Source: an uncultured Gammaproteobacteria bacterium
GTDB lineage: Bacteria > Patescibacteriota > Patescibacteriia > UBA9934 > GWF2-40-263
DNA: 37,309 nt
NCBI GenBank assembly: GCA_964538435.1
Contig: CAZIDX010000005.1
Span: 35,802-73,110, forward strand
Direction: 5' to 3'
The notes beneath the pieces were generated by a model. That model made no database searches. It was not told the DNA's origin and saw only the letters and a program-made list of their open reading frames with translations. The position numbers and the translations under genes were made by a program. The stretch's first letter is position 1. Each line of letters opens with the position of its first letter. Positions 1 through 37,309 of this stretch are shown piece by piece.

Positions 1-219
1 GAATTGAGAATATTCTCTATTCTGGATTCTTGATTCTCTATTCCATTCCCAGATGGAGTCCCGAGCGCTTTGCCTCGTATGGCATGGTCGGGTCCGTTGT
101 TTTTTGATCTAGGTCGCGAGCGGTGGCTCAAGCCCCGACGTTATCAGTCGGGGCTCCGATTTAACCATTGGCTGGTTGTGTCGGAGCGGTGTCCTTGATC
201 ATGGATGCGTGGGTGCACC

Positions 220-528
220 CTAGATGCGGATCTTGGCCGCGATGAGGTCCTCGAGAATCTCGCGAGAGTGCGAGGTGTGGAAGAACACCTGGCAGGGATC
301 ATCAGCGCCTCGGTACCAGCGGTTCCGGTGCAGACGAAGGCCGATCCACTCGCCACTGTGACGCGTGAAGGTCACGAGCGGGCAGGTGGTGTGGTCTTCC
401 CACTGGAAAGTGTAGCCGTCCGTGGTCAGCGCATCACGCACGGTGACGGGCTGGCTGTCGAGCTCCACGATCTGCTGGGTGCTGTTCTCGAGGTCTACGA
501 TTGCGATGAAAGCATGCTTGCTCATCAT
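220..528 (-). CDS. hypothetical protein (cassette-like ORF 1)
   Basis: Minus-strand ORF, 103 aa. ATGATG start preceded by AAGGAG-type RBS. The 220-aa ORF-track call runs through the palindromic spacer and is trimmed here. High GC. Confidence 0.55.
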   Translation of the reverse strand: MMSKHAFIAIVDLENSTQQIVELDSQPVTVRDALTTDGYTFQWEDHTTCPLVTFTRHSGEWIGLRLHRNRWYRGADDPCQVFFHTSHSREILEDLIAAKIRI

Positions 529-553
529 CACTCCTTTCTGGTGGTGACTTTCC

Positions 554-595
554 ACCGATCCGGAGTCGAGTCTTAACTCGGCTCGGGGTCGGTGG
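554..595. repeat. family-A imperfect palindrome (CACCGATCCG...GGGGTCGGTG), copy 1
   Basis: One of four copies (554, 1026, 1715, 2506). Conserved outer arms, variable but complementary centre, conserved asymmetry in the right arm. Confidence 0.8.
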
Positions 596-676
596 TCCCA
601 AGCTGCGTGCTTGGGCCGCGTTGTATTGCCGCCGGATGACATTCTGGTTGCCCGGCGATGTGTGGAGCTTGGGTGG

Positions 677-985
677 CTAGTAGTCCTTTCCGCTCTTGAT
701 GCGGTCGAGAGCTGCACGTGCCAATCTTCCAATCTCTGCGCTCGATCTCTCGAGGGTCTGCACGTGACTCGGCGAACCTTGGCACACGATCTCCCCTTCG
801 ATCTGGACTGGGAAGATGTGATGCGCGTACTTGGACATAGACCTTCTGGGCGGGCAGGAGGCGGGATCGTAGTCCTCTCCATACTCTGAGATCATGTCCA
901 TGACGTACCCGAGAACATGCAGGTCGTTTTCTTGGCTTCCTGGAAGCCTACACAGCACGCAACACCCTGGTTTGGGATTGCTCAT
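677..985 (-). CDS. hypothetical Cys-rich small protein (cassette-like ORF 2)
   Basis: Minus ORF; GTG/ATG start with AAAGGA RBS. Contains CCVLC...C motifs. Preceded by A copy 1 and B hairpin (625-660, ...TTGGTTGCCCGGCG). Confidence 0.5.
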   Translation of the reverse strand: MSNPKPGCCVLCRLPGSQENDLHVLGYVMDMISEYGEDYDPASCPPRRSMSKYAHHIFPVQIEGEIVCQGSPSHVQTLERSSAEIGRLARAALDRIKSGKDY

Positions 986-1025
986 CACTCGTCCTTTCGC
1001 GCTTTGCGCTCAGGGGGGGTAGAAT

Positions 1026-1065
1026 CACCGATCCGTGCTCGAGCGAACTCGAGTAGGGGTCGGTG
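1026..1065. repeat. family-A imperfect palindrome copy 2
   Basis: CACCGATCCGTGCTCGAGCGAACTCGAGTAGGGGTCGGTG. A B-type hairpin (CGCCGGG...TTGCCCGGCG) follows at 1090-1130. Confidence 0.8.
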
Positions 1066-1146
1066 AGCTCAAGTGACGTCTTGACTTGGGCCGTATTCGC
1101 TTTCGCCGGGTGGCTGTGGTTGCCCGGCGGGTTGGAAAGGGTTGTG

Positions 1147-34715: not shown

Positions 34716-35087
34716 TTAAATCGATTCCTTTGCAGGTTCTTTAGATTTTGTTAATTCCTCCTCGAGTTCTTTAATGTGTTTTTTAAGTGAGATCATCTTG
34801 AGCTCACGACCAACCATAAGATCATTGAGACGCTGCAACTCATCAGTTTGTTCTTTTACCTGCTTGATCTCCTGTGAAAGCTGGTCATTTTTACGATTTA
34901 GCTCCTCAGAAGAAAGATCAAGGGACCGCTCAATCAGCTCGCGGTCTTCGTCGGCATGCTTGTAGGAATCACTTACAGATTTTAGAAAACGCTGACAGTG
35001 CTCTGAGGTAAAATCAACACCTTTCAGGTATTTTTTTACCTGACGTTGCAACATTTTGTGAAATTGTGAGAGTTCTTCTTTTGTCAT
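34716..35087 (-). CDS. coiled-coil protein, hypothetical
   Basis: 123 aa, heptad-rich. Stop 3 nt from the FIST start, so co-transcribed. Confidence 0.5.
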   Translation of the reverse strand: MTKEELSQFHKMLQRQVKKYLKGVDFTSEHCQRFLKSVSDSYKHADEDRELIERSLDLSSEELNRKNDQLSQEIKQVKEQTDELQRLNDLMVGRELKMISLKKHIKELEEELTKSKEPAKESI

Positions 35088-35183
35088 GTGTATCTATCTT
35101 AACAAATTTTGCCCTGTGCTTCTACAAGAAGTCATTCACAGCCCAGCATGAGAAAACACCCATTGACTCTGGGTGTTTTCGCC

Positions 35184-36125
35184 TTATGAATCTGATACTG
35201 CATTGAGCGTAATAGTCCCTGAGCATGTTCCTGAAACATCTATGCTTGGCATGAGCAGATCCCAATGAATTTCTCCGGATGGATCCACCTCTGTCACTGT
35301 CTTGTACCCAATGGACAAATCGATATTTGCTGGAGTTGCTGAGAGTGAATTGGCCCCAGCTCCTCCATACCCGTCATCATTTAGAACATCCCACTCGATA
35401 TTTGCAACTGGAATTTCACCAATCCCACTACATGTCATGTTCGTTCCAGAGGCCTCAACATCTGACTGAGCGTTCCCGCCTTGATAGACGGTCATGAGCT
35501 GACTTTCCAGAGCTGTTGTCGATGCTCCCATTTCTAATGTTCCCCAGGCAACCCCTTCAGGAAACGTTAGTGCCAGCGTGGTTCCGATATCAATCGTATC
35601 TGTTTTATTGCCGGTATCTGACTGTGCATCTGTTACCACAATCTTTGCGTTCCAGTTGTTTCCGTTTTCATACCCCCCAAGAACCGTGCCGTTTGCCCAA
35701 TACTGAATCATTTTCATGCAATCGAATTCTTTTTGGTTTGGGTTTGTTGCGTTTCGTTTGCTGCAACCAGACACCTTATAACAGTTTGTTGGGTGTTCTG
35801 AACACTGATCAGACTCAGCACCGTCAGAATAGAAGGCTAGATCAATTGAAGTAATGTCGTCTTGACCGTCTAAATCTTCGACGATTCCAGAAACATGAAG
35901 CTCTGTGGTTGTTCCAGCATTTAACGTAATCTCACCATCACTTTCATTGGATGTCATTCTATAGCCTCCAGAACCTGTGTTTATATACGTAGAAACAACC
36001 GTTGGGGCATTGTTTGGAGGTGGAGGATCCTCTGCATGAATACTTAACGCGAATACAAGTCCTGTGGCAATAAGTGCGCACGCAAAGATAAGTGAGAACC
36101 TCCTGTGTTCTTGATGGGTTTTCAT
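35184..36125 (-). CDS. secreted Thr/Gly/Asp-rich protein, paralog 1
   Basis: Signal/anchor. Shares blocks with 36159..37169 (YxNTG.G.YR.ST.E.DG.ITL.AG..TE.H.SG, NC.[KR]VS.CS, SG.C.GT.TL.AV). Confidence 0.6.
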   Translation of the reverse strand: MKTHQEHRRFSLIFACALIATGLVFALSIHAEDPPPPNNAPTVVSTYINTGSGGYRMTSNESDGEITLNAGTTTELHVSGIVEDLDGQDDITSIDLAFYSDGAESDQCSEHPTNCYKVSGCSKRNATNPNQKEFDCMKMIQYWANGTVLGGYENGNNWNAKIVVTDAQSDTGNKTDTIDIGTTLALTFPEGVAWGTLEMGASTTALESQLMTVYQGGNAQSDVEASGTNMTCSGIGEIPVANIEWDVLNDDGYGGAGANSLSATPANIDLSIGYKTVTEVDPSGEIHWDLLMPSIDVSGTCSGTITLNAVSDS

Positions 36126-36158
36126 AGAATCAGGGCGTGTTAATCAATTCCTCCTGGG

Positions 36159-37169
36159 TTATGTAGACGGGACAGCTGTGAGGGTGGTTGTTCCTGTGCA
36201 CACTCCAGATACATCGTACTCTGGAATCTCAATATTCCAGTACAGCTTTTTTGAAATGATGGTATCAAGGCGATATCCAATGTTGATATCTGCAAGTTTT
36301 GGGTTTTGCGAATCGGTTGATAGAACCCTGTCTGGATTTGTTATGGCAGCATGCCCAAGATCAGCTGTTGACCACTTGATGTTTGACCCTGGAATCGTTC
36401 CAGTGTTTGAGCAAGGCATGTCAGATCCGTAAATGTTAATGTCGGCGATATCATTCCCGCGCTGGTTGATATCAAGCTCCACATTGTTTGCCAAAGTGGT
36501 TTTTGCACCCTGCGCCATGGTTCCCCAGTCAATTGTTGACGGGAAGTCGAGAGCGAGAAGTGTGTCAATATCAATTGTGGCAGTTTGTGTTGTTGCAGAA
36601 CCCAACTGATCTGTCACAGTAATTGTTGCTGTCCAGTCTCCACCATCCTCACGACCACCTGTTCGTGTGGAGTTTGTCCAGTATCCGAGGTTGATTGAGC
36701 AGTCGTAATCCAGCGAGTCTGCGTCCTTATTTTGTGTTGAGCATGTACTTACTCGAAAACAGTTGTTTACATCACTAGAGCAAAGGGCGTTTACAGACTC
36801 AGGGGACCAGAATGATGCTTCGACTTTGCTGATATCTGAGTCACCATTTGTGTCAGAAACTGTTCCTGAGATGTGAAACTCTGTATCGACTCCTGCGGTA
36901 AGTGTGATAATCCCATCCCCCTCATTCGTGCTCAACCGATAAGTGCCAGGCCCTGTGTTGAAGTAGACTGTGTCAACAGAAGGGTTTGCGTTTGCAACCC
37001 CAGCTGATGAGTTGATCTGATCGGCTTGTGAATTTGTACTCACCAAAGAAATGGCGACAAAAATCGTAATGGCAAGAAGTGCCGCACCCAGCACCCAATG
37101 AAGCGCGCTTGAGTTGTTTGATTCGGTCATATGACTGTTGTTTTGTAACATAAAACTCCTCAAATGCAT
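36159..37169 (-). CDS. secreted Thr/Gly/Asp-rich protein, paralog 2
   Basis: Tandem paralog of the previous gene. N-terminal TM anchor. Confidence 0.6.
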   Translation of the reverse strand: MHLRSFMLQNNSHMTESNNSSALHWVLGAALLAITIFVAISLVSTNSQADQINSSAGVANANPSVDTVYFNTGPGTYRLSTNEGDGIITLTAGVDTEFHISGTVSDTNGDSDISKVEASFWSPESVNALCSSDVNNCFRVSTCSTQNKDADSLDYDCSINLGYWTNSTRTGGREDGGDWTATITVTDQLGSATTQTATIDIDTLLALDFPSTIDWGTMAQGAKTTLANNVELDINQRGNDIADINIYGSDMPCSNTGTIPGSNIKWSTADLGHAAITNPDRVLSTDSQNPKLADINIGYRLDTIISKKLYWNIEIPEYDVSGVCTGTTTLTAVPST

Positions 37170-37195
37170 TTTAGCATAGCTCAGCCGAAAAAAAA

Positions 37196-37232
37196 CAAAA
37201 ACACCCAGGGTTATCCCCGGGTGTTTCCTTTT
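37196..37232. terminator. bidirectional terminator
   Basis: ACACCCAGGG-TTAT-CCCCGGGTGT, with TTTTGTTTTTTTT on the minus strand. Confidence 0.6.
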
Positions 37233-37234
37233 GT

Positions 37235-37309
37235 CTATTGTGCAGGCGGTGCTGGAGGTGCAGGTGGAGCAGCTGGTGGCTGCGGTGGAGCTGCAGGCGG
37301 TGCTGGAGG
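37235..37309 (-). CDS. 3' end of a gene with Pro/Ala-rich C-terminus (partial, continues beyond the window)
   Basis: Reverse complement encodes ...PPAPPAAPPQPPAAPPAPPAPPAQ* with stop at 37235-37237. Confidence 0.5.
   Translation of the reverse strand, partial: PPAPPAAPPQPPAAPPAPPAPPAQ

What the first reader, a model, noticed from the sequence alone, without database searches (positions are those of the whole stretch)
1..37309. Mosaic GC structure: four high-GC blocks in a moderate-GC CPR-like backbone sharing a terminator style
Backbone genes (rpsP, rlmN, trmD, pyrD, 16S, pili, the two-component system) are about 42-50% GC. Blocks at about 60-4415, 6950-13500, 19990-22270 (itself interrupted) and 32760-33470 are about 56-62% GC, with sharp boundaries that coincide with terminators. 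Blocks 2 and 3 share an unusual terminator tail, hairpin + TTTCTTATT, at 12985, 13480 and 20625. This hints at a common donor. The TIR element (4865-4975 and 8894-8992) occurs in both compartments.
Basis: seen in the sequence. Interest (0 to 1): 0.5.

Follow-up and report, generated by a model that had tools for sequence, protein, structure and literature searches.

The report
GC-rich gene patches, CPR chromosome
The GC-rich patches are real parts of one chromosome of a candidate-phyla-radiation bacterium, but most sit at the same places and stay GC-rich in distant relatives, so they are a long-lived GC-rich gene class plus two newer cassette insertions, not imports from one donor.

Summary
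The GC mosaic is real. A two-state HMM finds high-GC stretches at 1-4294, 6908-9696, 10201-12613, 20033-20632, 21588-22256 and 32809-33438 (0.59 against 0.46). Independent Logan assemblies or conserved synteny cross every junction, so the contig is not chimeric. The "foreign blocks from a common donor" reading holds only in part.

- **Block 2a** is a SAM-riboswitch, MVP-like and MTA/SAH-nucleosidase unit. It lies between rlmN and trmD in relatives down to about 90% 16S identity. It co-diverges with the backbone and keeps the same GC3 excess.
- **b3_275 and the block 4 gene** also have positional orthologues.
- **Block 1** is an array of co-oriented ORFan minigenes with TAG stops, downstream of a promoter-like site. 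Conserved hairpin modules separate the genes. A relative carries the same hairpins at the same locus around different genes. It has no canonical attC cores and no integrase is in view.
- **Two insertions are specific to this lineage**: 9.7-14.4 kb (with a phage-type AAA5-DUF7192 pair) and 18.77-21.38 kb. Both are of mixed GC. They hold all four hairpin+TTTCTTATT terminators and three single genes flanked by direct repeats.

No donor can be named, because the block 1 and block 4 proteins tested are ORFans. Why the GC-rich class persists is not explained.

The parts
1..4294 (-). Block 1: array of seven co-oriented ORFan minigenes (220-561, 677-988, 1147-1635, 1820-2506, 2737-3201, 3235-3660, 3800-4129). 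All end in TAG, with GC3 0.67-0.87. Hairpin-rich spacers of 0.60 GC lie between them. The array runs off the left end of the window.
   Evidence: (Logan gene calls on this strand). No Pfam or PHROG hit. g4 and g3 have no homologues beyond themselves.
552..595 (-). Hairpin C, an interrupted 18-bp stem with invariant outer arms CACCGAC / ATCGGTG. Other copies are at 1025-1066, 1715-1752 and 2506-2547. Each lies just upstream of the next gene's ribosome-binding site.
   Evidence: Alignment A3 and RNAalifold show 5 pairs with compensatory changes. Covariance model R1 finds only these 4 copies plus 5 in the L088 array.
3711..3755 (-). Hairpin C' (TCTCAACCCAGCTCTC...GAGCTCTGAGTTGAGA). It has the same architecture as hairpin C but a different sequence. 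A second copy is at 4309-4353.
   Evidence: (D7). A similar copy lies in L088 5746-6099.
4360..4817 (-). Conserved non-coding leader of the array. It contains a hairpin with a conserved CTCCAA loop and CTCGCTCTTTACAC tail (about 4363-4415) and a strong sigma-70-like promoter (4763-4735, TTGACA-17-TATTAT, TG) that points into block 1.
   Evidence: promoter; hairpin; 76-90% nucleotide identity to L088 6431-7100 and 71.5% to L085 5704-5856.
4864..4975 (+). Palindromic element, copy A, upstream of the rpsP promoter.
   Evidence: (I1, D10, D12).
6753..6856 (+). SAM-I riboswitch aptamer, followed by terminator hairpins at 6871-6887 and 6946-6969.
   Evidence: Rfam RF00162, 60.9 bits against a gathering score of 44.4. 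Terminators.
7118..8839 (+). Block 2a: short (573 aa) major-vault-protein-like gene, GC 0.61, GC3 0.72.
   Evidence: Pfam MVP_shoulder 9e-29, Vault_3, Vault_2, Vault_4 and Band_7. 83 homologues. Positional orthologues in L085, L088, L089, L097 and others.
8894..8992 (+). Palindromic element, copy B, in the MVP-pfs spacer.
   Evidence: L088 has a pair of a different sequence at the same two positions.
9031..9681 (+). Block 2a: MTA/SAH-nucleosidase-like gene (PNP_UDP_1), GC 0.575.
   Evidence: Adjacent to MVP in 7 related loci, and one gene away in L085.
9697..14388 (.). Lineage-specific insertion 1, between pfs and trmD. It holds a 560-nt non-coding stretch with two strong promoters and a terminator; a 197-aa ORF (10261-10854); a CobS-like AAA5 ATPase (10911-12086); DUF7192 (12088-12969); a 132-aa ORF (13071-13469); and a 282-aa low-GC ORF on the minus strand (13530-14378).
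   Evidence: Pfs to trmD is 340 nt in L089, adjacent in L097, and holds other genes in L088 and L085. AAA5 matches phrog_249 at 1e-49 and DUF7192 matches phrog_1909 at 7e-35. The same pair in the same order occurs in phage Tunturi_4; the pair also lies close together on one strand in two Rhizobium phages.
12978..13010 (+). Terminator hairpin with TTTTCTTATT tail. A second is at 13462-13491. The 15-nt direct repeat AGGGGTTTTCTTATT (12996-13010 and 13477-13491) brackets the 132-aa gene.
18766..21378 (.). Lineage-specific insertion 2, between the 16S terminator and b3_275. It holds a bestrophin-like gene (18793-19650, minus strand, GC 0.41) between 17-nt direct repeats (18749-18765 and 19719-19735); a GC-rich 202-aa lipoprotein-like gene (19995-20603) with a hairpin+TTTTCTTATT terminator (20613-20642); and a PaaX/Cas2-like wHTH gene (20774-21298, GC 0.42) between 34-37-nt direct repeats (20745-20781 and 21299-21335).
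   Evidence: L088 has 38 nt where the window has 2.6 kb. Direct repeats. Pfam and PADLOC.
21439..22266 (+). Block 3b: 275-aa secreted-looking protein, GC 0.55. It is conserved (66% identity) at the same position next to the ASCH gene in L088.
32803..33447 (-). Block 4: a single 214-aa ORFan, GC 0.61, GC3 0.78, TAG stop. Its flanks are at backbone GC (0.40).
   Evidence: Its only homologue (74% identity) lies immediately after the FIST gene in a JGI contig, as it does here. Both junctions lie inside Logan contig L081.

Best explanation
The window is one real piece of the chromosome of a Parcubacteria-type CPR bacterium. Its genes belong to different synonymous-site composition classes. The GC-rich patches are not one set of imports. 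They are the contents of a few variable slots in an otherwise syntenic core: upstream of rpsP, rlmN to trmD, 16S to ASCH, and FIST to the histidine kinase.

These slots hold three kinds of content.
(a) Old residents inherited vertically that have stayed GC-rich. These are the SAM-riboswitch, MVP-like and Pfs operon, b3_275 and the block 4 gene.
(b) An array of ORFan minigenes downstream of a promoter-like site. Its genes turn over between relatives, while the hairpin modules between them are conserved.
(c) Two recent multi-cassette insertions of mixed GC. They brought their own hairpin+TTTTCTTATT terminators, three single genes bracketed by direct repeats, and a phage-type AAA5-DUF7192 pair.

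Shown: contiguity, slot positions, which parts relatives have or lack, co-divergence of MVP and pfs with the core, and persistence of the GC3 contrast.

Inferred: genes in these slots are exchanged or recombined within a pool shared by related, often GC-richer CPR lineages and their phages. That exchange, possibly with GC-biased gene conversion, would keep their GC3 above the AT-leaning level of the core.
For: **Contiguity.** Logan contigs from two runs match the window at 100% identity and cross the junctions at 4.3-4.4 kb, 19.99 kb, 32.8 kb and 33.4 kb. The other junctions are bracketed by genes that are syntenic in relatives.

**Old residents.** L085, L088, L089 and L097 carry MVP and pfs in the rlmN-to-trmD interval. 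L095 has them about 6 kb from pyrD, and L096 has only the MVP-pfs pair. 16S identity to L088 is about 93% and to L085 about 90%. The pairwise identity matrices of MVP and pfs show the same ordering as those of trmD, pyrD, KH and rlmN. MVP GC3 is 0.72-0.86 against 0.37-0.60 for neighbouring core genes in each of these genomes. b3_275 and the block 4 gene have positional orthologues.

**Array.** The same hairpin C occurs 4 times here and 5 times in L088, only in the arrays upstream of rpsP. The ORFs between the hairpins are unrelated apart from one weak small family. The two tested here (g3, g4) are ORFans. TAG stops are enriched (11 of 16 against 5 of 25, p = 0.003). The promoter and leader region is conserved in three genomes.

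**Recent insertions.** Relatives show empty or differently filled sites. All four TTTCTTATT tails lie inside the insertions and none occurs in L085. Direct repeats of 15, 17 and 34 nt bracket single genes. The phage pair is shown.

**Wider pattern.** MVP is GC-richer than its flanks in most related loci, by up to 0.22 in L093. GC-rich relatives exist (L094 0.65, L090 0.57, L001 about 0.62).
Against: The cause of the persistent GC-richness was not tested. Congruent identity matrices argue against replacement of MVP and pfs from outside the clade. Around blocks 3 and 4 the GC rise stops at the ORF ends and the flanks are at 0.40-0.49, which fits a gene-specific or codon-level cause better than a regional recombination effect. 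No recombinase, transposase or phage integrase lies in the window or next to the arrays of L085 and L088. In two low-GC relatives (L092, L091) MVP has the GC of its genome, so GC-richness is not intrinsic to the gene. Only 37 kb of a 97-kb contig and 20-kb pieces of relatives were seen. Genome-wide GC3 distributions are unknown.
Confidence: 0.55

Rival explanations
1. One reading: all four high-GC blocks are recent horizontal acquisitions from one high-GC donor, inserted into a moderate-GC backbone and not yet ameliorated.
For: The blocks have atypical GC3 and excess TAG stops. Parts of blocks 2 and 3 share the TTTCTTATT tail. Two segments are absent from relatives. A phage-type gene pair is present.
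Against: MVP-pfs, b3_275, the block 4 gene and the array locus are positionally conserved. MVP and pfs co-diverge with core genes across about 90-93% 16S relatives and show the same GC3 contrast. The blocks fall into at least three codon classes, with four-fold GC from 0.77 to 0.54 and different C:G ratios. The recent insertions also carry low-GC genes. No donor homologues exist for the block 1 and block 4 proteins tested.
Confidence: 0.07
2. Assembly chimera: the contig joins reads from a moderate-GC organism and a high-GC organism.
For: GC switches are abrupt, and Logan contigs break at repeats at 586, 4891 and 20777-20781.
Against: Independent Logan contigs from SRR8146440 and SRR8146443 are 100% identical to the window and span four junctions. 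The breaks coincide with repeats 29-57 nt long, as expected for a short-word (k-mer) assembler (my inference; the assembler's word length was not checked). The same low/high/low GC order with the same genes recurs in separately assembled relatives from other projects.
Confidence: 0.02
3. Gene-specific selection on codons or mRNA keeps GC3 high in these genes, for example for expression level or transcript stability. No gene flow is involved.
For: In blocks 3 and 4 the GC rise is confined to the ORF. The contrast persists in orthologues beyond the point where synonymous sites should be saturated; that saturation is inferred from 64-72% protein identity and about 90% 16S identity.
Against: Both G3 and C3 rise, and amino-acid use shifts the way GC pressure would shift it (more Arg, less Lys, Ile and Asn). 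Block 1 spacers are also 0.60 GC. The ribosomal protein gene rpsP has GC3 of 0.41. MVP has its genome's GC in L092 and L091.
Confidence: 0.12
4. Block 1 is not a cassette platform. It is an ordinary operon of fast-evolving paralogues made by tandem duplication. The spacers are conserved because they are regulatory or RNA-processing hairpins.
For: One weak small family spans both genomes: window g1, L088 2568-2864 and L088 3874-4176. A single promoter-like site lies upstream. Hairpin C sits in each 5' untranslated stretch next to the ribosome-binding site. No recombinase or attC cores were found.
Against: Most ORFs show no detectable similarity to each other and differ in length and topology. 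Spacer modules are 75-90% identical between genomes whose ORFs are unrelated. The outer hairpin arms are invariant in sequence while the inner pairs covary, which suggests a protein-recognised site.
Confidence: 0.2

Closest known systems
[quoted passage not shown]
   Same: Patches of atypical composition lie in a streamlined CPR genome. Slot content varies between relatives. Phage-type genes are present. Exchange within the radiation is the likeliest source.
   Different: Here the atypical class is GC-richer than the core. Much of it is positionally conserved and co-diverging rather than sporadic. No integrase or transposase is present. Single genes are bracketed by direct repeats of 15-37 nt.
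Chromosomal integron cassette arrays and CALINs (clusters of attC sites lacking an integrase)
   Same: Small co-oriented ORFan genes, with no promoter-like site found between them, lie downstream of one promoter-like site. An imperfect palindrome separates each gene from the next. The repeats are conserved, but gene content differs between related genomes at the same locus.
   Different: No RYYYAAC...GTTRRRY cores were found (0 hits). No IntI lies in the window or beside the arrays of L085 and L088. The repeats are composite, with up to three hairpins per spacer, and include the 5' untranslated stretch of the next gene. Recombination has not been shown.
Phage CobS-like AAA+ ATPase ('porphyrin biosynthesis', phrog_249) paired with a DUF7192 / phrog_1909 protein
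   Same: The same two genes lie adjacent and in the same order in Tunturiibacter phage Tunturi_4; in Rhizobium phages P106B and RHph_X2_24 they lie within about 1 kb on one strand.
   Different: Identity is only 25-41%. No other phage genes flank the pair here. The pair lies in a chromosomal slot between pfs and trmD.
Major vault protein (eukaryotic vault shell; bacterial homologues reported in Myxococcales, Cytophagales and Oscillatoriales, bioRxiv 10.1101/872010; also phage and Asgard homologues)
   Same: Vault repeat domains, the MVP shoulder and an SPFH/Band-7-like region are present. Identity to eukaryotic MVP is 29-34%.
   Different: This form is short (about 545-590 aa against about 790-860 aa). 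It is common in CPR (Uhrbacteria and Parcubacteria names). It is linked to an MTA/SAH nucleosidase, and in three lineages to a SAM-I riboswitch. Assembly into a vault is unknown.
GC3 heterogeneity linked to recombination (GC-biased gene conversion in bacteria; from my own knowledge of Lassalle et al. 2015, not checked here)
   Same: Within one genome, a subset of genes keeps higher GC3 over long periods without a change in protein phylogeny.
   Different: Nothing here measures recombination or substitution spectra. The ORF-limited GC rise in blocks 3 and 4 is not what a regional process predicts.

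Membership tests
Horizontally acquired genomic island | Composition differs from the host genome | tested here: met
   HMM segments at 0.57-0.62 against 0.46. Four-fold GC is 0.54-0.77 against 0.35.
Horizontally acquired genomic island | Absent from related genomes at the same site | tested here: inconclusive
   Met for 9.7-14.4 kb and 18.77-21.38 kb. Not met for MVP-pfs, b3_275, the block 4 gene and the array locus.
Horizontally acquired genomic island | Mobility genes (integrase, transposase) or tRNA-linked integration with flanking repeats | tested here: not met
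   No integrase or transposase domain was found in the block and insertion genes scanned against Pfam, PHROGs and PADLOC; several backbone ORFs were not scanned. Direct repeats flank three single genes, but none is at a tRNA gene.
Integron / CALIN cassette array | attC sites with RYYYAAC and GTTRRRY cores 40-130 nt apart | tested here: not met
   0 pairs on either strand of 1-4430 (shuffle mean 0.25).
Integron / CALIN cassette array | IntI tyrosine recombinase next to the array (complete integrons only) | tested here: not met
   None is seen between the array and rpsP in the window, L088 or L085. The far side of the L085 array is an SMC-like gene. The far side in the window and in L088 lies outside the sequence held.
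Integron / CALIN cassette array | Co-oriented small ORFs without their own promoters behind one promoter, with variable content between conserved repeats | tested here: met
   Seven minus-strand ORFs lie behind the 4763-4735 promoter, with no other promoter-like site found. The hairpins are shared with L088, but the ORFs are not.
REP/BIME-type extragenic palindromes | Imperfect palindromes dispersed in many intergenic regions of the genome | tested here: not met
   Model R1 finds hairpin C only inside the arrays. There are no copies in the other 33 kb of the window or in 14 other loci. Whole genomes were not available.
Prophage or prophage remnant | Phage structural, packaging or integration genes in a contiguous block | tested here: not met
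   Only the AAA5 and DUF7192 genes match PHROGs strongly. The 197-aa and 282-aa neighbours have no phage match.
SAM-I riboswitch (RF00162) | Covariance-model score above Rfam's gathering score, followed by an expression platform | tested here: met
   60.9 bits against 44.4. A terminator lies at 6871-6887. Equivalent hits occur in L085 and L092.
Major vault protein family | Vault repeat domains plus the MVP shoulder domain | tested here: met
   MVP_shoulder 100 bits; Vault_3, Vault_2 and Vault_4 above their cut-offs. Particle assembly is not testable here.
CPR / Patescibacteria chromosome | Phylogenetic placement of marker genes in the radiation | tested here: inconclusive
   A protein in the same 90% cluster as the syntenic relative's MVP is named Parcubacteria group bacterium, and MVP homologues are named Uhrbacteria. 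The best RlmN hits among GTDB representatives are MAGs labelled Bdellovibrionales, at 49-56% identity and without synteny. No 16S or marker-gene tree was made.

The most novel reading that the evidence does not exclude
Block 1 and its counterparts in L088 and L085 are a gene-cassette platform of a new kind in CPR bacteria. At a fixed locus divergent from rpsP, an array of ORFan minigenes lies downstream of a conserved promoter-like site. Whole units bounded by a conserved interrupted hairpin (invariant CACCGAC / ATCGGTG arms) are gained, lost or swapped by a recombinase encoded elsewhere. This would work like an integron but without attC cores or IntI. The single genes flanked by direct repeats elsewhere in the window would be products of the same or a similar insertion route. 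The GC-rich, TAG-terminated style would be the signature of the shared cassette pool.
Probability: 0.2. Interest if true: 0.8.

Novelty: new variant of a known kind. Interest (0 to 1): 0.5.

Why it matters
Atypical GC is routinely read as recent horizontal transfer, and in metagenome bins as contamination or chimerism. Here a GC-rich gene class stays GC-rich and stays in place across relatives that have diverged to about 90% 16S identity. Composition-based island callers and bin-cleaning tools would therefore misjudge it.

The work also exposes three features worth their own study:
- An array of ORFan minigenes bounded by hairpins, whose content turns over at a fixed locus in CPR genomes.
- Single-gene insertions bracketed by direct repeats of 15-37 nt, with no mobility gene nearby.
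- A short major-vault-protein homologue widespread in CPR, tied to an MTA/SAH nucleosidase and in three lineages to a SAM riboswitch.

Tried and rejected
- **Exact-protein look-ups.** Look-ups of rlmN, pfs, MVP, DUF7192, hyp282 and P0001 found nothing, probably because of differing start calls or collection gaps. So the 97-kb parent contig could not be fetched.
- **RlmN scan of GTDB representatives.** The best hits (49-56%, labelled Bdellovibrionales, GC about 0.6) share no other gene with the window. They gave no synteny.
- **Viral contig scans.** Scans with DUF7192 and MVP found no close relatives.
- **Tetranucleotide signatures.** Z-score correlations are 0-0.3 for every pair, including backbone against backbone. 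They are uninformative at 0.6-8 kb.
- **Recursive single-split GC segmentation.** It missed the small islands. The HMM replaced it.
- **Rfam at E-value 1 or below on 4100-10300.** It found nothing new in the long non-coding stretches.
- **PADLOC.** No defence system was found apart from Cas2-like hits for the PaaX-like gene.
- **Canonical integron.** Rejected: no attC cores.
- **Prophage.** Rejected for any block: no structural or integration genes.
- **CRISPR reading of the 37-nt repeats.** Rejected: only two copies, and they bracket a whole gene.
- **Literature.** A search for the run accession SRR8146440 and for MVP together with CPR found nothing.

Full report

Overall GC of the window is 0.502. 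The sliding profile and a two-state HMM place GC-rich states at 1-4294, 6908-9696, 10201-12613, 20033-20632, 21588-22256 and 32809-33438. Mean GC is 0.59 in these states against 0.46 elsewhere.
- Block 2 is cut by a non-coding gap of 0.46 GC at 9697-10200 and decays to about 0.52 after 12.6 kb.
- Block 1 genes are on the minus strand.
- The backbone is itself uneven. rlmN, trmD and pyrD are about 0.50 GC, and the pilus genes about 0.44.

The difference lies mainly at synonymous sites:

| Compartment | Four-fold GC |
|---|---|
| Backbone | 0.35 |
| Block 1 | 0.77 |
| Block 4 | 0.70 |
| Block 2a | 0.68 |
| Block 2b | 0.55 |
| Block 3 | 0.54 |

Both G3 and C3 rise. Amino-acid use also shifts in the GC direction, with more Arg and less Lys, Ile and Asn. 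TAG stops end 11 of 16 block genes, including all seven in block 1, against 5 of 25 backbone genes (Fisher p = 0.003).

Most GC switches fall at gene ends with terminator-like hairpins. The tail TTTCTTATT occurs four times against 0.34 expected; the three + strand copies directly follow a hairpin, and the minus-strand copy lies about 15 nt beyond one. The 'TIR element' is a real but diverged pair of palindromic elements at 4864-4975 and 8894-8992.

**2. Gene content**

Rfam finds a 16S rRNA gene (17098-18594), tRNA-Phe and tRNA-Ile (22681-22833, minus strand), and a SAM-I riboswitch (6753-6856).

- **Backbone:** rpsP, rlmN, trmD, pyrD, a KH-domain gene, a type IV pilus cluster, two response regulators, a histidine kinase, a FIST-domain gene and secreted proteins.
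- **Block 1:** seven small minus-strand ORFs with no Pfam or PHROG match.
- **Block 2a:** a 573-aa major-vault-protein-like gene and an MTA/SAH-nucleosidase-like gene.
- **Block 2b:** a 197-aa ORF, a CobS-like AAA5 ATPase (phrog_249, 1e-49), a DUF7192 protein (phrog_1909, 7e-35) and a 132-aa ORF.
- **Block 3:** two secreted-looking ORFs, split by a low-GC PaaX/Cas2-like wHTH gene.
- **Block 4:** one 214-aa ORF.

**3. The contig is not a chimera**

Logan assemblies of SRR8146440 and SRR8146443 contain contigs 100% identical to four stretches of the window:

| Contig | Window span | Junctions crossed |
|---|---|---|
| L081 | 22788-37270 | Both block 4 junctions |
| L082 | 586-4891 | The block 1 to backbone junction |
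| L083 | 18561-20777 | The 19.99 kb junction |
| L084 | 19637-20781 | The 19.99 kb junction |

Three of the contig ends (586, 4891 and 20777-20781) lie in repeats: the block 1 hairpin, the palindromic element and the 37-nt repeat. The remaining junctions are bracketed by genes that keep the same order in relatives assembled by other projects (see section 4).

**4. Relatives**

A search with the MVP-like protein gave a 100% match on a 97-kb NCBI contig and 82 homologues. The named ones are Candidatus Uhrbacteria, Eremiobacterota, Anaerolineales and Asgard archaea. Eukaryotic MVPs match at about 30%. A protein in the same 90% cluster as P0004, the MVP of syntenic relative L085, is named 'Parcubacteria group bacterium'.

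Gene order in the syntenic loci:
- **L085**: rpsP, rlmN, a 154-aa ORF, SAM riboswitch, pfs, a 191-aa ORF, MVP, a 258-aa ORF, trmD, pyrD, KH, 16S.
- **L088**: a GC-rich array, then rpsP, rlmN, a TrmB-like gene, MVP, pfs, a peptidase-like gene, trmD, pyrD, KH, 16S, the b3_275 orthologue, ASCH.
- **L089 and L097:** MVP, pfs and trmD directly adjacent.

The rRNA-region alignments (16S gene plus flanks) are about 93% identical to L088 and about 90% to L085.

Pairwise identity matrices for MVP and pfs show the same ordering as those for trmD, pyrD, KH and rlmN. The window, L089 and L088 are closest, then L085 and L097, then L095. This is the pattern of vertical co-inheritance.

In every one of these genomes MVP has GC 0.61-0.65 (GC3 0.72-0.86) and pfs GC 0.54-0.63. 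The adjacent core genes have GC 0.43-0.53 (GC3 0.37-0.60). At 64-72% protein identity, synonymous sites should be saturated (my inference from general knowledge). The contrast is therefore not left over from a recent transfer.

The block 4 gene has one homologue in 5.8 billion proteins (74% identity). It lies directly after the FIST gene, as it does here.

**5. What is specific to this lineage**

Nucleotide comparison shows two segments that relatives lack.

- **Insertion 1, about 9697-14388.** The distance from pfs to trmD is 340 nt in L089. L097 has nothing there, and L088 and L085 have other genes there.
- **Insertion 2, 18766-21378.** L088 has 38 nt between the 16S terminator and the b3_275 promoter.

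Both segments are compositionally mixed:
- Insertion 1 has the GC-rich 197-aa, AAA5, DUF7192 and 132-aa genes, a 0.47-GC gene on the other strand, and a 560-nt non-coding stretch.
- Insertion 2 has a 0.41-GC bestrophin-like gene, the 0.56-GC 202-aa gene and the 0.42-GC PaaX/Cas2-like gene.

All four TTTCTTATT tails lie inside these two segments, and L085 has none. Exact direct repeats bracket three single genes:
- 15 nt around the 132-aa gene.
- 17 nt, a copy of the 16S terminator tail, around the bestrophin-like gene.
- 34 nt (37 nt with one mismatch) around the PaaX/Cas2-like gene.

L089 has a small ORF between two copies of a different terminator tail at the pfs-trmD site. The AAA5-DUF7192 pair occurs adjacent and in the same order in phage Tunturi_4, and lies within about 1 kb on one strand in two Rhizobium phages. 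Its neighbours have no phage match.

**6. Block 1**

The spacers between the seven genes share modular hairpins:
- A post-stop hairpin (CCGCCGGG...CCGGCGG, or CCCACCAGG...CCTGGTGGG).
- A small CCCAAG...CTTGGG hairpin.
- Hairpin C, just upstream of the next ribosome-binding site. It has an interrupted 18-bp stem with invariant outer arms (CACCGAC / ATCGGTG) and covarying inner pairs. Five pairs carry compensatory changes.

Two spacers carry a hairpin of the same shape but a different sequence (3711-3755 and 4309-4353).

A strong sigma-70-like promoter (4763-4735, minus strand) points into the array. No other promoter-like site lies inside the array. The promoter and leader region is 72-90% identical to the equivalent regions of L088 and L085.

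L088 has, at the same place upstream of rpsP, ten small minus-strand ORFs (GC3 0.64-0.92, seven with TAG stops) and five copies of the same hairpin C. L085 has a shorter array with related hairpins.

The proteins are unrelated between and within arrays, apart from one weak small family. The two window proteins tested have no homologues elsewhere. About a third have signal peptides or membrane anchors (read from the sequences).

A covariance model of hairpin C finds no copy outside these arrays in 182 kb. There are no canonical attC cores. No recombinase lies beside the arrays in the sequence available.

The array therefore resembles an integron cassette array in layout and in its turnover of content. 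It fails the defining tests for membership, and recombination has not been shown.

**7. Explanation and its limits**

Four points are shown:
- This is one real chromosome segment.
- The GC-rich genes sit in a few variable slots of a syntenic core.
- Some of them are old and vertically inherited, and some are new.
- The GC contrast is stable over long divergence.

The cause is not shown. Arguments bearing on it:
- Region-wide high GC in block 1, including the spacers at 0.60, the rise of both G3 and C3, and the amino-acid shift all point to a compositional pressure or a GC-rich pool, not to selection for particular codons.
- GC-rich relatives exist (L094 0.65, L090 0.57). MVP exceeds its flanks in most lineages, by 0.22 in L093, but not in L092 or L091.
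- Against a regional process, the GC rise around blocks 3 and 4 stops at the ORF ends.

I favour exchange within a shared, GC-richer cassette pool, possibly with biased gene conversion. I give about 0.55 to the whole account and much less to this last step.

**8. Comparison with what is known**

Genomic islands and gene exchange among Patescibacteria are documented (PMC12455944). Bacterial MVP homologues are documented for other phyla (bioRxiv 10.1101/872010). A search for MVP together with CPR found no paper.

The finding as given, a GC mosaic, is therefore a known kind of thing. The variants of interest are:
- The persistence and positional conservation of the GC-rich class.
- The hairpin-bounded ORFan array.
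- Single-gene insertions flanked by direct repeats, with no mobility gene nearby.
- The riboswitch, MVP and Pfs unit.

Noticed in passing
window 6753-9681; L085 8269-11722; L092 9815-11608: A SAM-I riboswitch lies upstream of the short MVP-like gene in the window and in L092. In L085 it lies upstream of pfs, a 191-aa ORF and then MVP. MVP and the MTA/SAH nucleosidase gene are adjacent in seven related loci, and one gene apart in L085. This link between a vault-protein homologue and SAM recycling did not appear in the papers searched.
   Followed up: partly
window 4864-4975 and 8894-8992; L088 about 7170-7290 and 11720-11850: Two copies of a long palindromic element sit upstream of the rpsP promoter and in the MVP-pfs spacer. 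L088 has a pair at the same two positions, but its sequence is quite different from the window's pair and nearly identical between its own two copies. This could be concerted evolution, or repeated insertion at the same sites.
   Followed up: partly
window 9697-10260: A 560-nt non-coding stretch carries two near-consensus promoters (9769-9797 and 9961-9989) and a terminator (10170-10192). This suggests a transcript of about 200 nt. No Rfam family matches even at E-value 1 or below.
   Followed up: partly
window 20745-21335: A PaaX-family gene (wHTH plus a Cas2-like domain) is bracketed by 37-nt direct repeats (36 of 37 identical). The first repeat contains the gene's own start codon. Logan contigs from two runs end in the first repeat.
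   Followed up: partly
L093 10001-11644: In a relative with about 0.32 GC, the MVP-like gene is a single-gene island of 0.55 GC (GC3 0.65, against 0.20 for pilB).
   Followed up: no
window 17098-18765; L088 16555-18230; L085 15430-17100: The 16S rRNA gene is followed by its own terminator and by protein-coding genes, with no 23S gene. The rRNA operon is therefore unlinked in all three relatives.
   Followed up: no
window 5061-5579: The ribosomal protein S16 gene encodes a long Lys/Glu/Ala-rich C-terminal extension (172 aa in all), with internal 51-54-nt repeats.
   Followed up: no
window 1-4129, 32803-33447; L088 676-6336: GC-rich ORFan genes strongly prefer the TAG stop codon: 7 of 7 in block 1, the block 4 gene, and 7 of 10 in the L088 array. 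The stop is usually followed by C (TAGC).
   Followed up: partly
window 37241-37309: An 18-nt exact repeat (TGCAGGCGGTGCTGGAGG) recurs at a spacing of 51 nt at the right edge of the window. It is probably the start of a tandem repeat that continues beyond the window.
   Followed up: no
L089 2230-2560: Two terminators with the identical tail GGTTTTCAAATTCAAAAC bracket a small GC-rich ORF in the pfs-trmD spacer. This resembles the cassettes bracketed by repeats in the window.
   Followed up: no
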